Assembly (NCBI GenBank): GCA_000002445.1
Contig: CP000068.1
Span: 1,184,001 to 1,248,000, forward strand
DNA: 64,000 nucleotides
Direction of reading: 5' to 3'
DNA from: Trypanosoma brucei
Lineage: Eukaryota
Position numbers and translations under genes: made by a program. Shown piece after piece: positions 53,765-62,442 of this stretch (positions are counted from its first letter, which is position 1; each line of letters begins with the position of its first letter). The notes under the pieces are model-generated. The model saw only the letters and a program-made list of their open reading frames with translations. It was not told the origin of the DNA and searched no databases.

Positions 53765-55170
53765 TTTTTTCAGTGAACATCTTACATAAACTTTGGTAGA
53801 AAATCTTAAGCACCTGTTTTGAATAACAACACTTCGGCAGCCTGTGTCGGTTGCTTGTCTTAAAAAGACATTCTTCTGCTTCATTGTACCCCTTTGTTTT
53901 AATACACAAGAATCAAAGAGATTGTTATGAAGGCAAAACGAGAAAAAAAAATGTCGCAAAGGCAAGAAATGCCGGGAATTTAAGAAGACATCCTCCCCGC
54001 CAAAGTTTTTTTTGGCCCAACGAACCGTACGAACTTGTATAGACTGGTGTAGACGAACCGTACCTGATCGAAACGAAAGTGTTTTTAAGCGTGAAGAAAT
54101 GCGATGAAGGACAAATGCGAAAATTCGAGGCAGGGACTTTAGGGAATGCCCAAACACTGTTGAGGATATTTTTAAAAAAAACCTCAGAATAAATCACCAT
54201 CTCGACGCGGTTTCAGAGCCCAATATGTAGGAACGACGGGGAAGGGAACCGAGGACCCGCAGCTAACTCCGCCAGGATTGGGTTACGAAAATAACCACGC
54301 GTGGGGCGTCAACAACAACAGCACACAAAAAAAAAACGCCGTTGCTAACCTGCAAAGCATCGAGGAAAATAATGACCTTTTTCCCTCGGTCTTTTCAGCA
54401 TGATGGCCTTCTCAGCGCAGTGGTGACACAACCTCAGCGGACATTTCCTCACCTTCCTTTGAGTTTATCTAAACTCTTCCCGTATACATCATTTTCTACA
54501 GGCGCAGCTCCTGTGGATAATTCATTCAATATTAAGGTTAATTCCTCCAAAGGGTATGCAAAATGGGTTGGCAGCTCCTCGCTATTGGTAATTCCATCTC
54601 CGAAACTTCGGACGTTTTTGTCCGCCACCTTTTCATATATTTCCACAATCACATTCATAAGTGCTGTTTTGTTGTTTGTTTTTTTGAAGCTCATTCTTCC
54701 ACCCAACACCGCACCCCCCTCCAAACGTCCCGCAATTCTTATCAGCAAAAAACAAAAAAACATTGCTTCATCCCTTTCCTACCTTATGACTCATTTTAAC
54801 AAAAGGAAAACGTTCAGGGAGTGTGAAAGCATAAACAATGACTAAACACGCGGGATTGCCTCAATAACGCATCGCGGAATACAATCACACATTACAGAAA
54901 AGAAATATAACCAATTTTATCACCAGTGCATTTCCCTGCACTTCCCCCCCCCCCTCTCCCTCAAAAAGGAACAAACAAGACGAAGGAAACACAACACACG
55001 AGGGGTTTATATTACATTTATTTATTTTTGGTTCATGCGTATGAAACCATATCCGTATGACACGTTTTTGCGCAGTGCATTGCACTTACTTTTTACACCA
55101 AGTGGATAAAAAGATAAACAAAACAAAAGGAAAAAAGGAAAAGAAACAATGGGAAAACACAATCAAGAAT
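53765..55170. other. Convergent strand-switch region (end of + strand transcription unit meets end of - strand unit); probable RNA polymerase II termination zone
   Basis: All confident genes up to 53764 are on +; all confident genes from 55171 onward are on -. No convincing ORF in between. Confidence 0.6.
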
Positions 55171-56085
55171 TCAGAATATACTGAGGAGCAAAAAAGAAAC
55201 CGCGGTAAAATATATTTTGATGATGAGGAGGGGCAACGGCGATTTAATACCGCCATCTTGTGTAGGGCGATCAACTCCATGCGCCTCAGGGGTGGCGGAG
55301 TTTTCAGGAGGTGGTTCCGTCGTTTCATTTTGTTTATCATTCTGTGATGTCGAGTGGTTTGTATTATTTTTTTTTTCTTGGGCCTGCGGTAACGATTGAT
55401 TTCGATGTGGTAATTGAAGTTTGTTTCGGGTGTCATCGCCTTCAGTGGTGGTTTCATTGTGTTTGTCATTAACTCCATTCCCTCCATTATCAGCAACCTT
55501 TTTATTGTCTTCATTTCTCGGGATTGCTTCCGCATTTTCATTACTTCTATCATCACCTTTCTTCTGATCGGTGACGTTATCATTTCCATGAACGACCGAC
55601 TCTTCTTCTCTATCAGTTTTCGGTTTTTCTTCAGGCGCTGCTTTAATTTCTTCATTGTTTTGAGTTGGCGATGCCTCTCCCTCAGCTTTTCCAACTTGAG
55701 GTGGCTGAGTTCGAATTTGTTGGACGCACTTCACTCGGTCACTGTCTTCCACATCGCAGGTATAATTGGTCTGATTAACGGATATTGTGCAATTTTTGAG
55801 ATATCTGCACAGTGGCAACACTTCCTTCTCTTGCCCATCAATCCTGCACTTACACGTAAAGTTGCTGACGTCAGGGCCGGGCATCCGATCACAAAAACCA
55901 TCGGGATCATCGGAACCATCCACATAGTTCTCCATTACTTCTTCAAGGAATTCGCAGTGTTCTTTTTGGTGTTCCTCCTCCGTTTGTGCGGGAGGGCGGC
56001 CTTTTCCAGGAAATTTCGCGTTCCATGTCTTAGCTTGAATAGCGAATGCACCCGCCAAGACTAAAAACACGACAAATATCCTCAT
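55171..56085 (-). CDS. Putative GPI-anchored surface protein: signal peptide, 8-Cys N-terminal domain, hydrophilic mucin/stalk-like low-complexity region, C-terminal GPI signal
   Basis: Signal MRIFVVFLVLAGAFAIQA. Cys spacing CEF..C..C..CKC..C..C..C..C. Multiple N-glycosylation sequons. E/N/K/D/T/P-rich stalk. Hydrophobic C-terminus SPLPLLIIKIYFTAVSFLLLSIF. Purine-rich (- strand pyrimidine-rich) tract upstream at 56190..56215. Confidence 0.45.
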   Translation of the reverse strand: MRIFVVFLVLAGAFAIQAKTWNAKFPGKGRPPAQTEEEHQKEHCEFLEEVMENYVDGSDDPDGFCDRMPGPDVSNFTCKCRIDGQEKEVLPLCRYLKNCTISVNQTNYTCDVEDSDRVKCVQQIRTQPPQVGKAEGEASPTQNNEEIKAAPEEKPKTDREEESVVHGNDNVTDQKKGDDRSNENAEAIPRNEDNKKVADNGGNGVNDKHNETTTEGDDTRNKLQLPHRNQSLPQAQEKKNNTNHSTSQNDKQNETTEPPPENSATPEAHGVDRPTQDGGIKSPLPLLIIKIYFTAVSFLLLSIF

Positions 56086-56792
56086 TATATTATTCCACTT
56101 GCAATATATTATCTAACTCCGCAAGTGTGTGCAGGTGCATGCAAATGTGAAACATATATTAATTTATTTAGTTTAGACATGTTAAAAATAGAAGAAAAGC
56201 GTCAACTGCCGCAATCGCCCGGCGAGAGTACTGCACACAAAAGACATATGAATATACACCACGCCCACAAAACTTCCGTTCCAGCGATGAAAGTCAAATG
56301 ATTTTTTCTCATTTCCTCGAAAACAGTGTTCCAACACCTTCTTTTCATGAGGTTGATAAATTATGACGTGCATGAATCTCAGCATTACCGTAAAAAATCC
56401 ATCAATGCATTCATACATTTACATCTTGTTAGGAAGGAGGGATTATTAAAAGCGCATGGAAGTGTGACGCTCCAAACTCGGTTTAGTGACATTTGCACGG
56501 GACTATTCTTCCTTCTGTTTACGCTTCTACGTTTTGACCCCGCATCTTATTAAAATAAATGAACTCAAATTAGAGCATCAGAGTGGAATATGGGAAAGGA
56601 AATGAAATATGATTTACAATTGCTGCTGACGTCTTAGCTGTTATGATGTGATATTACAAATGTGTCATGAAATAAACTACAACGCATTGCGATGAAGTGG
56701 GTTGACAGCAGAAACTGAATTTCTTCAGAGGAATATGCTCAACTAAACAACTAATGGCAAAAAGTCGATTCATTACACATCGGATGAACCAA

Positions 56793-56811
56793 AAATAAAT
56801 AAATAAATAAA
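56793..56811 (+). repeat. (AAAT)n microsatellite in the 3' flank of the - strand surface-protein genes
   Basis: aaataaataaataaataaa. Confidence 0.85.
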
Positions 56812-57175
56812 TGAACAGAGATTGATTGTTCACACCGCCTATTTTTTTTTTACGAGAAATTCACAGCGCCGTGTAAACAACACCGAAAGCGATGCATGCG
56901 CAATCCTCATGGCATGGTGGGCAACCTTTATAATAACATAGTTTTTTTTTATAACATTAATGCTGCTGAGACGTTACAGTGAGTTAATTTTAAATAATGA
57001 TACCGTTACGTGATGCCACGAGTCCCTTCTTCCGCATGAAATGAACTTAAACCAAAAATTAAAAAAAAACTAATTAAATAATGTGGCAAATGTCTTTCAT
57101 GTCTCCATCCGCATCTCCGTGTTAACAAAAAGTCGCTACAATCTGGCGGCGTGCCCTACACTTTTGTAAATTTAA

Positions 57176-57200
57176 GGAAAAGGGAAAAAGGGAAAAAGGG
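57176..57200 (+). repeat. (AGGGAAAA)3 short tandem repeat
   Basis: aaggaaaagggaaaaagggaaaaagggagg. Confidence 0.8.
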
Positions 57201-57285
57201 AGGACAAGGGACAATTCAAAGTGTGAAGAAAAAAAAAAAGGAAGCAGCTGGCAAAAAAAGCACTGAGTGGTGGCATGTTTGAAAA

Positions 57286-57320
57286 TAATAATAATAATAA
57301 TATTAATATTAATATTAATA
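57286..57320 (+). repeat. (AAT)n/(ATT)n compound microsatellite
   Basis: aataataataataataatattaatattaatattaata. Confidence 0.9.
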
Positions 57321-58054
57321 TGACGCGTCAATGGTGTTGTTCTTGGGAACAACAAGCTGGAAAGAGGAGAACAGGGGAAAAAAATATGAGGCGTTCCGTA
57401 CGCACATAAAATATGTTAATGAGGGGTAGATAAACATATAGGTAAAACTTATTAACAACAACGTTAAGAACACGTAACAACAAGAAATTAAAAAATCACA
57501 ATGAGAAAAAAAGGAAATAGATATGATCACCAAGAAAAAAAAAAGTTGTGCTAGTTATATTTCTTGTGTGCCTCAGTGTTCCCAAGAATGGGAACATAGA
57601 AACTAAGAAGAGGTTGCAGAGAAGTCGATAAATGCTGTAAAATTACGATAACACTTTAATATATATATATATATATGGAAACCAAAAAAAAAATAGTGGG
57701 AAAACAAGAAAAAAATAAAGAGGGGGACAACGCACAAAAACAAAAATGGTGGCGGCAGTCGTGAAGAGTAAATCCCTTTCTCGATGGCGCAGTAACTGCC
57801 TCTGCACGCGTAAATAAACTGTAAAATACAACAGTGCACTAAAAAGGAAATAATGGGGAAAAGGGCGGGGGAAAGCGTGTGCGCCGCCGAAATATGATCA
57901 ATTTTGGAGTAAAACAAGGAAAAGGGTGAATGGTAATGACGATGGTCAAATGGCAGGGAAATATTCCCATTTGTGGCGACACGCCCACGCTGGTCACATG
58001 AGCAGCAGCAGGATCATCATTAGCTGCGAGCCCCCCCCCCATAATATTTTTTTC

Positions 58055-58873
58055 TTAGAAAGAGAGGGCCGTGGCGGCAAGCATTACGAGAAGGAATTTC
58101 ATTGAAGTACCCACAGCCCCACTCGCTTCATCTTCCTTATCTTCATCGGAGTCGTCATCATCGATTTCAGGGAACTGAGCTGCCTCTTCTTGTGCCTCAC
58201 TCTTGGCATCATCAGCTGCATCGGCAGCCCTAACAGTCTCAGCGGTAGCTTTCTGAAGCTCCTCCAGTTTATTAGCCGCTTCATTCGCCTCCTGGAGGTA
58301 TTCCTCAGCGAAATCTTGCATGTACAGCCCTCTCAGGTTGTGAGCCGCTCTCGTAAGCGCTTCTGGCGTGACGTCGTCAGCAACAGCGGTGGCACATTCT
58401 TTAGCCAACTGCTTAATTGTTTCATTCCCTCCGTGCTCCGCGGCGCCCCTCAGCAAACCACTGAAGACACTTTCATATTCACTCTCAAAGCTGTCAAGCG
58501 CCCGGGCGAAGCGTTTTACTTCCATCGCTGCTGCTTCGGCACGTACAGATGCCTCATACGCCACCGTGGCGGCCTCCCGAGCTCTCTTTGCAGCCTGCTG
58601 CTGTTCCGATGTGCCGCCAACGGCACCCGCCTCCGCACGCTTCGCGGCCTTTTTGCCTTCCTTCGCTGCTTTTTTGCTTTCCTCCAATGCGCCTACAGCC
58701 TCGAACCTCCGCTCTTCCGTCAGTAGCGGAAGTTTACGCAGTTGTTTCGCCACCTCACATAGTGCTTTCGTCTGTTCCAATTCGGCTTCAAGATTATCGT
58801 TCGCGTAGGCGGTCGGTGCGAATATGAAGTGAAGACTGAGGCCGAGCACAAACAAAGCGCGGGAAATCATCAT
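58055..58873 (-). CDS. BARP/GARP-like alanine- and glutamate-rich, predicted helical, GPI-anchored surface protein
   Basis: Signal MMISRALFVLGLSLHFIFAPTAYA. Mature region strongly A/E/K-rich with heptad-like helices. Acidic DDDDSDEDKEDE preceding the hydrophobic C-terminal GPI signal SGAVGTSMKFLLVMLAATALSF. Confidence 0.5.
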   Translation of the reverse strand: MMISRALFVLGLSLHFIFAPTAYANDNLEAELEQTKALCEVAKQLRKLPLLTEERRFEAVGALEESKKAAKEGKKAAKRAEAGAVGGTSEQQQAAKRAREAATVAYEASVRAEAAAMEVKRFARALDSFESEYESVFSGLLRGAAEHGGNETIKQLAKECATAVADDVTPEALTRAAHNLRGLYMQDFAEEYLQEANEAANKLEELQKATAETVRAADAADDAKSEAQEEAAQFPEIDDDDSDEDKEDEASGAVGTSMKFLLVMLAATALSF

Positions 58874-59988
58874 CTTGGAATGGGTTACTGGTTGTTTTCG
58901 CGTGTAGTTGGTGGTGACGTTTTTTCTTTATCACAGAAATGAGCACATGAAGAAAGAGAAGGTGGAAGTACATGAAGAGAGTATGAAATCACAGCGGGAT
59001 AGAGCAGGGCAGTGGAAAGGAAATCACACGAGTTAGTTGGGTGTGGACGGGTCCACTTTCTTCAAGGCGTGTGGTGTCACCACAGTTTCTTCTGTTGAGG
59101 CAGCCGAAACTGTTAAACGTATGAGGGTTGCGTGCACGCGGTTTCATCGCACAGTTTAGCGCAGGTCGACTACCACTGGGGTCGCGATTATTACTGGAAT
59201 GGGTTCTGTTGAAGGATTGCTGTGTCACCTGATGACACACTAACGAGGAGACCTCCACGGACAACGCAGGCACCGATTTGACGCTCGCGCACATCTTTGT
59301 TCCATATCTCCGCGTTTGCAAGGACAAGGTTAATGTTATTGTCGAATCCCTTCAGCACGCCATGCACTTCGCGGTCCTCCAATGAAACAACAACACGACG
59401 ATCCAGATGCGGCTCTAGTGAAAGTATGCTCTCCTTTTTCTTAAGGATGTGTGCCTGCTGTGCCGACATTGCACCACCGAAACACGTATAAACTAGGTTG
59501 CCTCAGCAATGGTAAGGCAGAGGTTAAAAATAGGAGGAAAGGATGCAAGGAAAAAAACAAACATAGTGATGCAGCAAATACCAACACATTTCACACCTTC
59601 ACCACTGCCTCCATGCCTGTTGTCTCACCGGTTTCCCTTTCGATAGTGTTGTTACCATTCCTCCCACAACATTGAGTTCAATGCTGCGTTTGAGTTGTCG
59701 CAAACCTAAAGGTATTGCTGATTGTGTACCTGGGTCTTCAAAAGGACACGAAGAATCGTATGGACACACAGAAACATACACAAGTACGTTCGTAGACCCA
59801 CAAGGTAACGCGCACGCATCCGATAGTCGCTCACTCCGCAACATTGGCTAACCTCAACTCCCTTTTTTGCTTATATCCAAAATTCAGTTTCTTCTCGCCT
59901 CCCCTGCTTCGACCCCACTCACGTGGCTACCATTTCGCATCGTCCATTTCCACCTTCCCCCCCTCCACCCTTTCGAGTGCTATACACT

Positions 59989-62442
59989 TTATGGTGCGTT
60001 CCACTCAAGCGAGCGCGGGAATTGCTCATGGTTTATGAATGGCAAATCCTGCAAATCCTTCTCGTGGTGATGCATCTCCAGTTGCTGTACTGGTATGCTG
60101 TGCAGCAACCACGTTTGATCCTCTTCAAATGGGGTTTGGTCCACTTTTCCTGGAATCTGTTGCATGGGCCAAAGCTTGTTCACATTGTACACTGGTGCTG
60201 GCTCCGCAGAGATTGTAAACTGTTTATCCAAATATTTGGCGGTGTACGCCATCCAGTCCTGCGTGGCGGGTGTCTCGCTCGGCGTTGGTGGAAAACGGCT
60301 GGTTGGTGTATGGTACTCATGTGGGAACCGCTCGGCATTTTGCGGCAAATGAGGAATACTCTTCAGTTTGAATGTCTCCTCCTCCGCGATGGTGCGGGCA
60401 AGCAGCGCATCCGTGGCAGCTTGTGGTCGTAGTTGTGGTTCCACCAACCGTCGCGGCCTCCTCGCCTCCGGAGGCACACGGACAAAATCGAGACCAGAAA
60501 CGTCAGTAATGCCATCATTGACGGCCCGCAACGCTTCTTCGCTACACTGAAGACGCTTCGCTATGGCCACAAGCGTATCATTAGCATGCACACGCTCAAC
60601 CGGGCTGAACTCAGACTCGCTCGTTGACGTCCAGCAGGAAAGTGGGGCAACCAGTTCCGTTACTGAAGAATCAAACTCGCCCGCTTCGCTCTCTTTCTTC
60701 TGGTATGTCAGAGCGGCATGACCGTTACACTGTTGCAGCTCCTCTACTGTGCAATCAAGAATTGCTGCCGCCTCCTCCCATGTCCGAATACGCTCCCCAT
60801 CCTTCGCTGATGTTGTTTTTAGCGGAAGTACAAGTGGAGTCGCCCCAAAGCTTGTAAGTCTCCGTGTGGCAGTCACGGGGACATTAATCACAACTCCTGC
60901 CTCGATTGTCTCACGCTCCGCGTTCGCATCCTTCAATTCACCGACACTGCAACCCAAGCGCTGCGCCACGGCATCCCAGTTTTCACCTTCACGGACAGTG
61001 TCAGTGCTCAGTCGGTTTACTGGTGCCGACTGCCAGTCTAAAGCAAAGGAAAACATACGGTGATGTTCGTGCGTCGTTGGTGTCGCCGGGTCGTGTTCTG
61101 TAGGGAAAACCGCAGAATCGTGTATCACGTTACGTCGATAAATGGTGTGAAACTCGCAGGACGTCTGACGATGCAACCAGTGGCGTATATCGTACATGCG
61201 CTTCTCAAATTCCGTGCTTTGAAAGGGCAACTTGCATATTATTACCCTAAAGAACTTGCGAAACTCGTAGTGGGCTGTCGACATCTCAAGTTCTGTAAAT
61301 GAGGTGTCAGAAGAAGATGTCCAAAACTCGGCCATACGCACCCACGGCTCCAGTTTCTCAACGTGTGGCCATGATGTGTGCGGATCGTATATGTTTGTCG
61401 CACCTGGTACCGGTACATTACAACGGTTGATGACACTTAGACATTGCTCTTCTAGGCGCCGCAGGTCAGAGCGCAGGAAATTTGCGACCTCCTCCTTATC
61501 GTATTCATCATACCCCCCAAACGGACCGGCGCGGGCACAGTTGAATGCAGCGAGCAACTCCGGATCCACCGCACCTCCCTGCAGCAACCGACGTACCGCC
61601 ACCAACTTCTCCTCCACTATTTGGCGACCCACATCCTTCAAGAACATGCAAACATCCTCAGCCAGCTTCATCACGTGGTGATCCCAAAATCCTTCCAGAA
61701 CAATTTTGTAGGTTACCTCGGAACCACGAATACCATCCTCCTCGGTGTTCTCAAACACAAAGCGCCTATTTCGCACTTTGGCCACTTCATATTCGTACCA
61801 ATCCTCTGTTTTCCACTGGAAGGGGAACACACTTCGATCAGCGTTAATTTTTCCGGCATAAGACGGTATAGGCTCGAGCCGCCCGACGTCACGTTGCACT
61901 TCCAAAGGACTGAGAATGCGAGCGTGCTGGTGATGCTCACGCACAGCGCGATCCATTATGGTCTCCAGTGTGGGTGGTGGCGTTTTTTGATTCGCTTCGT
62001 TCATCTTCGTCAAGTAGGCGTCACGGAAGGGAAAACCTTTCTGTCCATTCCCACGGGACTTGCGTGGGTCAAATCTGGCGAACTCCCGCATGTATTGTAC
62101 ATACTCCCGGCCCTTCGCGTCGAATTCGTTGAACGGACGGAAGCGAAATGCATTCGGTGGCGCGCTTGCGCTCCACGGCCGATAATCTCCCATATGATGC
62201 GTCATGGAAGTACAGATATACCAACTGTCAACGTATTGGTCCTCAGGCACATCCGGGCGCACAAGTGGGCCGCGAATACTCATGGGAAATTTGTCGTCAA
62301 TAGGATCGATAAACTCGTTAGTTTTGGTGCTGTTCATGCTTTGTGGTGCAGCAACGGGGGCCGGACCGTCAAACTTTGGCATTTGCGTGGGCATTCGGTA
62401 CCGCGACCAATAGTACGCAACCACATGACTACGTCTAACCAT
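59989..62442 (-). CDS. Hypothetical 817-aa protein with three LysM-like repeats in its C-terminal half
   Basis: Repeats GENWDAVAQRLGCSVGELKDANAE..IEAGVVINVP, WEEAAAILDCTVEELQQCNGHAALTY and NDTLVAIAKRLQCSEEALRAVNDGITDVSGLDFVRVP fit the LysM pattern (D-T-L-x-x-I-A-x-r-x-x-x-s-x-x-x-L-x-x-x-N...G-x-x-L-x-V-P). Confidence 0.5.
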   Translation of the reverse strand: MVRRSHVVAYYWSRYRMPTQMPKFDGPAPVAAPQSMNSTKTNEFIDPIDDKFPMSIRGPLVRPDVPEDQYVDSWYICTSMTHHMGDYRPWSASAPPNAFRFRPFNEFDAKGREYVQYMREFARFDPRKSRGNGQKGFPFRDAYLTKMNEANQKTPPPTLETIMDRAVREHHQHARILSPLEVQRDVGRLEPIPSYAGKINADRSVFPFQWKTEDWYEYEVAKVRNRRFVFENTEEDGIRGSEVTYKIVLEGFWDHHVMKLAEDVCMFLKDVGRQIVEEKLVAVRRLLQGGAVDPELLAAFNCARAGPFGGYDEYDKEEVANFLRSDLRRLEEQCLSVINRCNVPVPGATNIYDPHTSWPHVEKLEPWVRMAEFWTSSSDTSFTELEMSTAHYEFRKFFRVIICKLPFQSTEFEKRMYDIRHWLHRQTSCEFHTIYRRNVIHDSAVFPTEHDPATPTTHEHHRMFSFALDWQSAPVNRLSTDTVREGENWDAVAQRLGCSVGELKDANAERETIEAGVVINVPVTATRRLTSFGATPLVLPLKTTSAKDGERIRTWEEAAAILDCTVEELQQCNGHAALTYQKKESEAGEFDSSVTELVAPLSCWTSTSESEFSPVERVHANDTLVAIAKRLQCSEEALRAVNDGITDVSGLDFVRVPPEARRPRRLVEPQLRPQAATDALLARTIAEEETFKLKSIPHLPQNAERFPHEYHTPTSRFPPTPSETPATQDWMAYTAKYLDKQFTISAEPAPVYNVNKLWPMQQIPGKVDQTPFEEDQTWLLHSIPVQQLEMHHHEKDLQDLPFINHEQFPRSLEWNAP

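What the first reader, a model, noticed from the sequence alone, without database searches (positions are those of the whole stretch)
58055..58873. BARP/GARP-like alanine/glutamate-rich helical GPI protein outside its expected array context
The composition and architecture (signal peptide, ~230-aa A/E/K-rich helical region, acidic patch, GPI signal) resemble the fly-stage coat proteins BARP (T. brucei epimastigote) and GARP (T. congolense). These are thought to share the VSG-like elongated helical-bundle fold. A single copy here, adjacent to a VSG-related gene, would be a coat-protein relative embedded in the chromosome core.
Basis: partly seen in the sequence, partly recalled or inferred. Interest (0 to 1): 0.5.

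Follow-up and report, generated by a model that had tools for sequence, protein, structure and literature searches.

The report
Known trypanosome factor H receptor gene

Summary
Window 58055..58873 (minus strand) holds a 272-aa ORF with a hydrophobic N-terminal signal. Its mature part is 227 aa and 45% Ala/Glu/Lys. An acidic patch and a 21-residue GPI-type C-terminal signal follow. It matches Pfam GARP (PF16731) at E=4.4e-51 over the whole profile.

It is not an uncharacterised BARP/GARP relative. It is 100% identical to Tb927.5.4020 of T. b. brucei TREU927 chromosome 5. Residues 25-251 are identical to PDB 6XZ6 chain A, the [quoted passage not shown].

Macleod et al. 2020 (PMC7067766) showed the following:
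- It is an about 90 Å three-helix bundle that binds factor H (KD about 0.1-0.15 µM).
- It is made in stumpy, procyclic and mesocyclic forms, but not in slender or epimastigote forms.
- It raises transmission to tsetse flies.

Jackson et al. 2013 (PMC3605285) had already placed it in Fam50 subfamily 'iii', as the single-copy T. brucei ortholog of a T. congolense tandem array. That clade is distinct from the BARP/GARP clade.

The "VSG-related" neighbour exists (atypical VSG Tb927.5.3990, 52331..53764 +). It lies 4.3 kb away, across a convergent strand switch, with two other genes in between.

Verdict: observation confirmed, interpretation partly right, already known, low interest.

The parts
58055..58873 (-). 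Complete coding sequence of Tb927.5.4020, the factor H receptor FHR (272 codons plus stop codon at 58055-58057)
   Evidence: ORF list and translation. 100% identity to XP_845072.1/AAZ11513.1. Pfam GARP E=4.4e-51. PDB 6XZ6_A is identical over residues 25-251.
58802..58873 (-). N-terminal signal peptide, residues 1-24 (MMISRALFVLGLSLHFIFAPTAYA)
   Evidence: Hydropathy means up to 2.28. The mature N terminus at residue 25 is seen in the crystal structure, and residues 25-251 were the expression construct.
58121..58801 (-). Mature polypeptide, residues 25-251 (227 aa). Residues 25-237 are the ordered part of the crystal structure (the three-helix bundle); the last 14 residues before the anchor site are acidic and not ordered.
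   Evidence: Composition. Crystal structure description in PMC7067766. Helices in the AF2 model. Foldseek top hit is 6XZ6.
58724..58786 (-). Conserved block near the mature N terminus (residues 30-50, AELEQTKALCEVAKQLRKLPL, with Cys39). This is the region the FHR paper singled out as conserved and tested by mutagenesis for factor H binding.
   Evidence: Invariant columns L32, Q34, C39, Q44, R46, L48 in the alignment with T. congolense and Tb927.8.930 relatives. [quoted passage not shown] The same block aligns with GARP.
58355..58396 (-). Fam50 signature: Cys160 followed by VTPEAL (a variant of the VTxxSL motif)
   Evidence: The motif is defined in PMC3605285. It is seen in the alignment to GARP 2Y44 and to the T. 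congolense relatives, which have VTPDSL.
58121..58189 (-). Acidic patch, residues 229-251 (13 of 23 D/E); its last 14 residues (238-251) are not ordered in the crystal
   Evidence: The ordered structure ends at residue 237, 14 residues before the predicted anchor site.
58058..58120 (-). Predicted GPI-anchor addition signal, residues 252-272 (GAVGTSMKFLLVMLAATALSF), with the predicted anchor site at Ser251
   Evidence: Sequence features and hydropathy. The predicted mature C terminus is residue 251. The anchor is described as 'probably GPI-anchored' and has not been shown chemically.
58926..58968 (-). Candidate trans-splicing signal: a 21-nt polypyrimidine tract (58968->58948) and the first downstream AG (58927-58926), about 50 nt upstream of the ATG
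   Evidence: Pattern scan. This is inference only; no spliced-leader mapping data were examined.
56086..58054 (-). AT-rich (37% GC) 1.97-kb spacer downstream of the stop codon, expected to hold the FHR 3'UTR and the processing signals of Tb927.5.4010. It has many polypyrimidine tracts, AU-rich repeats and an AAT microsatellite.
   Evidence: FHR mRNA depends on ZC3H20. The UTR boundaries were not determined here.
55171..56085 (-). Context: Tb927.5.4010, the immediate downstream neighbour and last gene before the convergent strand switch. It is a predicted secreted/GPI protein with no Pfam match.
   Evidence: Described as fast-evolving and located at a strand-switch region in PMC2854126.
52331..53764 (+).
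   Evidence: Pfam Trypan_glycop E=7.5e-76. Named 'VSG, atypical'. It is the model gene for base J/H3.V-dependent termination inside a transcription unit.

Best explanation
The ORF is the gene for the Trypanosoma brucei factor H receptor (FHR, Tb927.5.4020), in the chromosome 5 core of T. b. brucei TREU927.

How it works:
1. The 24-residue signal peptide directs the protein into the ER (sequence features shown here; the mature N terminus at residue 25 is shown in the crystal structure).
2. The 21-residue C-terminal signal is predicted to be exchanged for a GPI anchor at Ser251 (predicted, not shown chemically).
3. The mature 227-residue monomer is an about 90 Å three-helix bundle spread over the whole cell surface.
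4. At the end far from the membrane, helices 2 and 3 spread apart to form a pocket that binds CCP domain 5 of host complement factor H (KD about 0.11-0.15 µM for bovine FH).
5. Factor H is held in an orientation that lets it inactivate C3b and C3bBb at the parasite surface. This limits the alternative complement pathway.
6. Expression is stage-regulated. It is below detection in slender bloodstream forms, switched on in stumpy forms, highest in procyclic forms (about 200,000 copies per cell), present in mesocyclic forms and absent in epimastigotes.
7. The mRNA level depends on the zinc-finger protein ZC3H20.
8. Deleting the gene attenuates infection in mice and lowers transmission to tsetse flies.

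In evolutionary terms it is the single-copy T. brucei member of Fam50 subfamily 'iii', whose T. congolense counterparts form tandem arrays.
For: Identity:
- 100% identity over 272 aa to XP_845072.1/AAZ11513.1, 'hypothetical protein Tb927.5.4020'.
- Residues 25-251 are identical to PDB 6XZ6_A (E=1.4e-132). Foldseek lists that entry as 'Structure of the trypanosome brucei factor H receptor bound to domain D5 of bovine factor H'.

Synteny: the neighbours are exact matches to TREU927 chromosome 5 proteins, namely Tb927.5.4010, LSm7, uS10m, atypical VSG and a uL15-domain protein.

Family: Pfam GARP at 173.6 bits over profile positions 2-193 of 193, and the Fam50 Cys...VTxxSL motif is present.

Function, structure, stage expression and knockout phenotype: PMC7067766. 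Whole-surface localisation was confirmed again in PMC13186567.

Expression and regulation: midgut-specific mRNA, PMC3378594; ZC3H20 dependence.

Subfamily 'iii' and single-copy status: PMC3605285, supported here by the single copy in the window. The closest relatives are three consecutive T. congolense accessions, CCD14072-14074, at 44-47% identity; two of them lie on one 9,276-bp contig.
Against: Nothing argues against the identification. Caveats:
- Function, binding constants and expression come from the literature, not from tests made here.
- The GPI anchor is predicted; a later paper still says 'probably GPI-anchored'.
- My single-sequence AF2 model was poor (mean pLDDT 65.4; TM only 0.46-0.55 to its own crystal structure). 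The fold-search ranking is therefore not independent structural evidence.
[quoted passage not shown] 227 is the length of residues 25-251.
Confidence: 0.97

Rival explanations
1. One reading: an uncharacterised BARP/GARP-type coat protein of fly salivary-gland or epimastigote stages that happens to sit alone in the chromosome core.
For: Matches Pfam GARP. Ala/Glu-rich composition with a signal peptide and a GPI-type signal. Same three-helix fold group as GARP. The protein is abundant on procyclic cells, about 200,000 copies per cell, so it is a major surface component in one fly stage.
Against: The protein is identical to FHR, which has a defined ligand and a co-crystal structure. It is undetectable in epimastigotes, and its mRNA is specific to the midgut, not the salivary gland. 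The phylogeny puts it in subfamily 'iii', not in the BARP/GARP clade. None of the named hits of the exhaustive phmmer search is BARP at E<=1e-3. GARP is only about 27% identical.
Confidence: 0.02
2. A nutrient-uptake receptor of the HpHbR type: the same fold, but taking up a host macromolecule rather than regulating complement.
For: The fold search lists the T. congolense and T. brucei haptoglobin-haemoglobin receptors among the top matches (4E40 at E=9.5e-4). It is a monomer with a single predicted GPI anchor, like HpHbR.
Against: The main protein in pulldowns from serum was factor H. SPR and the crystal structure define an FH CCP5 pocket. The protein is expressed at high copy number over the whole surface, and the null mutant has a transmission phenotype consistent with a complement role. 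Sequence identity to HpHbR is only 14-20%.
Confidence: 0.01
3. A chance ORF, or an unrelated low-complexity coiled-coil protein.
For: Low-complexity A/E/K composition. The word-indexed homolog search returned only the protein's own cluster.
Against: Full-length Pfam match at E=4.4e-51. Identical orthologs in T. b. gambiense and T. equiperdum. The protein has been detected with specific antiserum and crystallised.
Confidence: 0

Closest known systems
T. brucei factor H receptor FHR, Tb927.5.4020 (PDB 6XZ6; Macleod et al. 2020, PMC7067766)
   Same: Everything. 272 of 272 residues are identical, and the chromosomal neighbours are the same.
   Different: Nothing. The window carries this gene itself.
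T. congolense Fam50 subfamily 'iii' ('putative cell surface-expressed gene family', CCD14072-CCD14074)
   Same: Closest relatives outside T. brucei, at 44-47% identity. They share the length (270 aa), the signal peptide, the conserved N-terminal LxQTxAxCxVAxQLRKLP block, the C...VTP(D/E)(S/A)L motif, the acidic tail and the GPI-type end. They are procyclic-enriched, like FHR.
   Different: They are multi-copy: three consecutive accessions, two of them on one 9,276-bp contig, described as subtelomeric tandem arrays. T. brucei has one copy. One paralog carries a Gly/Asn/Lys/Asp-rich insertion before the anchor signal. I found no report showing that they bind factor H.
GARP of T. congolense (PDB 2Y44) and BARP of T. 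brucei (chromosome 9 array, Tb927.9.155xx)
   Same: Same Pfam family and Fam50 membership, three-helix bundle, Ala/Glu-rich composition, GPI-type surface proteins.
   Different: Only about 27% identity to GARP (E=0.0023 against the PDB). None of the named hits of the exhaustive search is BARP. BARP and GARP are epimastigote-stage coat proteins with no known ligand; FHR is a stumpy and midgut-stage receptor with a defined ligand pocket.
MISP (Tb927.7.360-440; PDB 5VTL) and HpHbR (PDB 4E40, 4X0J)
   Same: Same fold group, ranked directly after 6XZ6 in the fold search. GPI-anchored monomers.
   Different: 14-20% identity. MISP is made in metacyclic and salivary-gland forms and has a long C-terminal extension and no known ligand. 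HpHbR binds haptoglobin-haemoglobin for haem uptake.
ISG65, the T. brucei complement C3 receptor (PDB 7PI6): a functional analogue
   Same: An invariant, helical-bundle trypanosome surface receptor that binds a complement component to limit complement action.
   Different: It is a transmembrane protein, not GPI-anchored. It acts in bloodstream forms and binds C3/C3b/C3d rather than recruiting the regulator factor H. Only a weak structural match (E=0.55). It has no GARP domain (from my own knowledge of the family).

Membership tests
Pfam PF16731 GARP domain / Fam50 of the African trypanosome cell-surface phylome | Match to the family profile above the curated cut-off, covering the whole domain | tested here: met
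   173.6 bits against a cut-off of 27.4, E=4.4e-51, profile positions 2-193 of 193, residues 33-225.
Pfam PF16731 GARP domain / Fam50 of the African trypanosome cell-surface phylome | The ubiquitous conserved cysteine followed by a VTxxSL-like motif (as defined in PMC3605285) | tested here: met
   C160-ATAVADD-VTPEAL aligns with GARP C-TGAAAE-VTSKSL and with T. congolense VTPDSL. The variant has Ser replaced by Ala.
Pfam PF16731 GARP domain / Fam50 of the African trypanosome cell-surface phylome | Elongated three-helix-bundle fold | tested here: met
   The identical sequence is crystallised as 6XZ6 and described as an about 90 Å three-helix bundle. The fold search ranks 6XZ6, MISP, GARP and HpHbR at the top. 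My own AF2 model was low-confidence.
Pfam PF16731 GARP domain / Fam50 of the African trypanosome cell-surface phylome | N-terminal signal peptide and C-terminal GPI-addition signal | tested here: met
   Hydrophobic residues 1-24 and 258-272, with small residues S-G-A at the predicted anchor site and the next two positions. This is a sequence-level test only; the anchor itself has not been shown chemically.
T. brucei factor H receptor (FHR, Tb927.5.4020) | Sequence identity to the characterised protein, including the crystallised ectodomain | tested here: met
   100% over 272 aa. Residues 25-251 are identical to 6XZ6_A.
T. brucei factor H receptor (FHR, Tb927.5.4020) | Genomic position on chromosome 5 between Tb927.5.4010 and the LSm7 gene | tested here: met
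   The neighbouring ORFs are exact matches to AAZ11512 (Tb927.5.4010), AAZ11514 (LSm7) and AAZ11515 (uS10m), on a 1,608,198-bp contig.
T. brucei factor H receptor (FHR, Tb927.5.4020) | Binds complement factor H through CCP domain 5 | not testable with these tools
   Taken from pulldown, SPR, mutagenesis and the co-crystal structure in PMC7067766. It applies directly because the sequence is identical.
BARP in the strict sense (T. brucei epimastigote coat protein) | Member of the tandem array on chromosome 9 (Tb927.9.155xx) | tested here: not met
   Single copy in the window, located on chromosome 5. BARP gene identifiers are given.
BARP in the strict sense (T. brucei epimastigote coat protein) | Close pairwise sequence similarity to BARP proteins | tested here: not met
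   Exhaustive phmmer against 1.84 billion representatives gave only 4 hits at E<=1e-3. They are the protein itself, two T. congolense clusters and Tb927.8.930/950; none is named BARP. Caveat: I assume, but did not verify, that BARP sequences are in that library.
BARP in the strict sense (T. brucei epimastigote coat protein) | Epimastigote or salivary-gland stage expression | not testable with these tools
   The literature says the opposite: FHR is undetectable in epimastigotes and its mRNA is midgut-specific.
GARP in the strict sense (T. congolense) | Orthology, meaning GARP would be the closest T. congolense relative | tested here: not met
   GARP 2Y44 reaches only E=0.0023 and about 27% identity. 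T. congolense subfamily-iii-like proteins reach E=1.6e-38 and 47% identity. Published phylogeny.
HpHbR (haptoglobin-haemoglobin receptor) | Sequence-level relationship to Tb927.6.440 or TcHpHbR | tested here: not met
   The resemblance is at fold level only, with 14-20% identity. HpHbR was not retrieved by phmmer against the PDB at E<=0.01.

The most novel reading that the evidence does not exclude
Four lineage-specific surface-protein genes (atypical VSG Tb927.5.3990, Tb927.5.4000, Tb927.5.4010 and FHR) sit on the two sides of one convergent strand switch. On the plus-strand side, base J/H3.V/PNUTS-dependent early termination is known to silence the last two genes. It is not excluded that chromatin-based termination on the minus-strand side also contributes to the strong stage-dependent and serum-dependent switching of FHR and Tb927.5.4010. 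One example of that switching is the unexplained induction of FHR in bloodstream forms grown in rabbit serum. Current evidence implicates only mRNA-level control.
Probability: 0.06. Interest if true: 0.4.

Novelty: already known. Interest (0 to 1): 0.07.

Why it matters
The gene matters biologically. It encodes the first described trypanosome receptor for a complement regulator, it links immune evasion to transmission by tsetse flies, and it shows how the Fam50 three-helix scaffold was adapted to bind a host ligand. All of this has been published, with a crystal structure, knockouts and fly-transmission data. The second look adds no discovery. Its value is a precise relabelling: the ORF is FHR (Fam50 subfamily 'iii'), not a BARP/GARP-like orphan, and its genomic context is corrected.

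Tried and rejected
1. The word-indexed homolog search with the single sequence returned only the protein's own cluster. The low-complexity A/E/K composition probably filled the candidate list. The exhaustive phmmer search was needed to find the T. congolense and Tb927.8.930/950 relatives.
2. The AF2 single-sequence prediction gave mean pLDDT 65.4, with poor packing in residues 138-184. Its TM-score to the protein's own crystal structure is only 0.46-0.55. I therefore use the fold-search ranking only as a consistency check, not as evidence for the fold. The crystal structure provides that evidence.
3. Scans for tRNA genes and Rfam families, which sometimes mark strand-switch regions, found nothing in the whole window.
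4. tblastn and blastn for further copies or pseudogene fragments of the gene in the window found none. The best extra hit has E=0.47 at 54873..55013 and I treat it as chance.
5. A search of the supplements of the PNUTS/base J paper for Tb927.5.4020 and Tb927.5.4010 found only Tb927.5.3990. The stored file is truncated, so this is inconclusive.
6. I chose not to spend a second large profile search to retrieve BARP sequences for a direct pairwise comparison. The published Fam50 phylogeny and the search in which no named hit was BARP already answer the question, and the verdict does not depend on it.
7. The rival readings (BARP/GARP-type coat protein, HpHbR-like nutrient receptor, spurious ORF) were considered and rejected, as set out under rival explanations.

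Full report
**1. The observation**

The window has an ORF at exactly 58055..58873, on the minus strand. It has 272 codons, starts with ATG at 58873 and ends with a stop codon at 58055-58057.

- Residues 1-24 (MMISRALFVLGLSLHFIFAPTAYA) are hydrophobic, with Kyte-Doolittle 11-mer means up to 2.28.
- Residues 25-251 (227 aa) are 45.4% Ala+Glu+Lys. The whole protein is 21.0% Ala, 13.6% Glu and 6.6% Lys. There are two cysteines (39 and 160) and one N-glycosylation sequon (N150).
- Residues 229-251 form an acidic patch with 13 of 23 D/E.
- The last 21 residues (GAVGTSMKFLLVMLAATALSF) follow Ser251 and have the layout of a GPI-addition signal: small residues at the predicted anchor site and the next two positions, a polar spacer and a hydrophobic tail.

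An AlphaFold2 model is helical from residue 28 to 231. The gene is present once in the window.

**2. What it is**

The protein matches Pfam PF16731 (GARP, 'glutamic acid/alanine-rich protein of Trypanosoma') with E=4.4e-51. The score is 173.6 bits against a curated cut-off of 27.4, and the match covers profile positions 2-193 of 193.

It is 100% identical over its full length to 'hypothetical protein Tb927.5.4020 [Trypanosoma brucei brucei TREU927]' (XP_845072.1/AAZ11513.1). It is also identical to T. equiperdum TEOVI_000337300, and it clusters at 90% identity or more with the T. b. gambiense ortholog.

Residues 25-251 are identical to PDB chain 6XZ6_A (E=1.4e-132). That entry is titled 'Structure of the trypanosome brucei factor H receptor bound to domain D5 of bovine factor H'.

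The neighbouring ORFs are exact matches to TREU927 chromosome 5 proteins: Tb927.5.4010, LSm7, the LysM-domain mitoribosomal protein uS10m, an atypical VSG and a uL15-domain protein. The window is therefore T. b. brucei TREU927 chromosome 5, and the gene is Tb927.5.4020.

**3. How it works (from the literature, which applies directly because the sequence is identical)**

Macleod et al. 2020 (PMC7067766) screened the genome for predicted three-helix-bundle, GPI-anchored surface proteins. Their findings:
- Recombinant Tb927.5.4020 (residues 25-251) pulls complement factor H out of bovine serum and binds it with KD 114-153 nM.
- The crystal structure shows an about 90 Å three-helix bundle, ordered from residue 25 to 237.
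- The membrane-distal ends of helices 2 and 3 spread apart to form a pocket for factor H CCP domain 5. This holds factor H in an orientation compatible with C3b inactivation.
- The protein is below detection in slender bloodstream forms. It is induced in stumpy forms, rises to about 200,000 copies per cell in procyclic forms, is present on mesocyclic forms and is absent from epimastigotes.
- It is spread over the whole cell surface.
- FHR-null parasites are attenuated in mice and infect fewer tsetse midguts (31/114 for wild type against 12/119 and 11/106 for the two null clones).

Other papers agree:
- The mRNA is midgut-specific in flies (PMC3378594).
- The mRNA falls when the RNA-binding protein ZC3H20 is depleted (PMC3121479 and bioRxiv 10.1101/646547).
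- A 2026 eLife paper (PMC13186567) confirms whole-surface localisation. It reports unexplained induction in bloodstream forms grown in rabbit serum. It still describes the protein as 'probably GPI-anchored', so the anchor remains a prediction.

**4. Relation to BARP and GARP**

Jackson et al. 2013 (PMC3605285) define Fam50 as the family that unites BARP, GARP, CESP and further subfamilies. They name Tb927.5.4020 as the single-copy T. brucei ortholog of T. congolense subfamily 'iii', which forms subtelomeric tandem arrays and is procyclic-enriched. My own tests agree with this:
- An exhaustive phmmer search of 1.84 billion representatives found only four proteins at E<=1e-3. They are the query itself, a T. 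congolense 'putative cell surface-expressed gene family' cluster, a T. congolense fragment, and Tb927.8.930/950 at 27% identity.
- The T. congolense cluster is 47% identical (E=1.6e-38). Its three members have consecutive accessions, CCD14072-14074, and two lie on one 9,276-bp contig.
- None of the four is named BARP.
- GARP (2Y44) reaches only E=0.0023 against the much smaller PDB set and about 27% identity.

The Fam50 signature, a conserved Cys followed by a VTxxSL-like motif, is present as C160...VTPEAL. A conserved block near the mature N terminus (L32, Q34, C39, Q44, R46, L48 are invariant in my alignment) corresponds to the single conserved region that the FHR paper tested by mutagenesis for FH binding.

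The fold search ranks 6XZ6 first (E=3.8e-18), then MISP 5VTL, GARP 2Y44 and the T. congolense HpHbR 4E40. The query model was poor (mean pLDDT 65.4), so I treat this only as a consistency check.

In short, the protein is a member of the GARP-domain/Fam50 family. It is not BARP or GARP in the strict sense.

**5. Genomic context**

Plus-strand genes run up to about 54.8 kb, and minus-strand genes start at 55171. The region around 54.9-55.1 kb is therefore a convergent strand switch.

- Minus-strand unit: it ends uS10m (59989..62442), LSm7 (59191..59469), FHR (58055..58873), Tb927.5.4010 (55171..56085).
- Plus-strand unit: it ends with the atypical VSG Tb927.5.3990 (52331..53764; Pfam Trypan_glycop E=7.5e-76) and probably Tb927.5.4000 (54342..54845).

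However, it lies 4.3 kb away on the other strand, with two genes and the strand switch in between.

Tb927.5.3990 and Tb927.5.4000 are the published model case of termination inside a transcription unit that depends on base J, H3.V and PNUTS (PMC7055916). Tb927.5.4010 has been noted as a fast-evolving predicted GPI protein at a strand-switch region (PMC2854126).

The housekeeping genes on both sides confirm a chromosome-core position. They include adenylate kinase, an arginine methyltransferase, a DEAD-box helicase, an MFS transporter and an AAA ATPase.

**6. Processing signals (inference only)**

On the minus strand, a 21-nt polypyrimidine tract (58968->58948) is followed by the first AG at 58927-58926, about 50 nt upstream of the ATG. 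This is a plausible trans-splicing acceptor.

The 1.97-kb spacer downstream of the stop codon is AT-rich (37% GC). It holds many polypyrimidine tracts and AU-rich repeats, and it presumably contains the 3'UTR through which stage regulation acts.

**7. Verdict**

The family, fold, signals, copy number and core position are right. The specific identity, the clade, the stage and the function are not. The feature is already known in detail, so interest is low.

One reading is not excluded: that termination control at this strand switch also shapes FHR expression. It has no direct support. A supplement search found only Tb927.5.3990, in a truncated file.

Noticed in passing
window 46000-52300: This 6.3-kb stretch, between the uL15-domain gene (44864..45988) and the atypical VSG, has no ORF longer than 175 aa. 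It has a run of short plus-strand ORFs in different frames (46609-48271) and marked swings in GC content (0.40 to 0.51) and in AT skew. According to the literature, this is where transcription terminates early (base J/H3.V) upstream of Tb927.5.3990. Whether it holds a decayed gene was not checked.
   Followed up: partly
window 55171-56085 (-): Tb927.5.4010 is a 304-aa predicted surface protein. It has a signal peptide, a Cys-rich N-terminal part, a long N/E/K/D/T-rich low-complexity middle and a hydrophobic C-terminus. It has no Pfam match and is alone in its 90% cluster. It is reported as unusually fast-evolving (92.7% identity to the T. b. gambiense ortholog) and specific to African trypanosomes. 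I found no assigned function in the papers I checked. It is FHR's immediate neighbour and the last gene before the strand switch.
   Followed up: partly
window 54342-54845 (+): This 167-aa ORF (TTG start as listed) is probably Tb927.5.4000, the last gene of the plus-strand unit. It has no Pfam match, and the exact sequence is not in the protein collection, so the annotated start probably differs.
   Followed up: partly
window 58640-58683 (inside the FHR coding sequence): An imperfect 21-bp tandem duplication (2.1 copies, 86% match) encodes the repeated KKAAKEGKKAAK stretch. This stretch lies in the first half of the mature protein.
   Followed up: no
window 56800-56812 and 57284-57320: AU-rich repeats (overlapping TTATTTATT on the minus strand) and an (AAT)12 microsatellite lie in the AT-rich spacer downstream of FHR. 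They are candidate mRNA-stability elements in the presumed 3'UTR.
   Followed up: no
outside the window: proteins P0026/P0029/P0031 (Tb927.8.930, Tb927.8.950): These 470-aa 'T. brucei spp.-specific' proteins match FHR in two stretches. In the alignment they repeat the LxQTxxxCxxxxQxRxL and C...VxxxSL blocks, so they appear to carry two GARP-like domains in tandem. Tb927.8.950 is reported as salivary-gland specific.
   Followed up: no
window 1-64000: No tRNA genes and no Rfam family matches were found anywhere in the window, including the convergent strand-switch region.
   Followed up: yes
window 59989-62442 (-): The 817-aa LysM-domain protein next to LSm7 is the mitoribosomal protein uS10m (cryo-EM entries 6HIV, 6SG9). 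In TREU927 it is still named 'hypothetical protein, conserved'.
   Followed up: no
literature, PMC7067766 against window 58055-58873: [quoted passage not shown] The ORF is 272 codons, and 227 is the length of the mature part (residues 25-251).
   Followed up: yes
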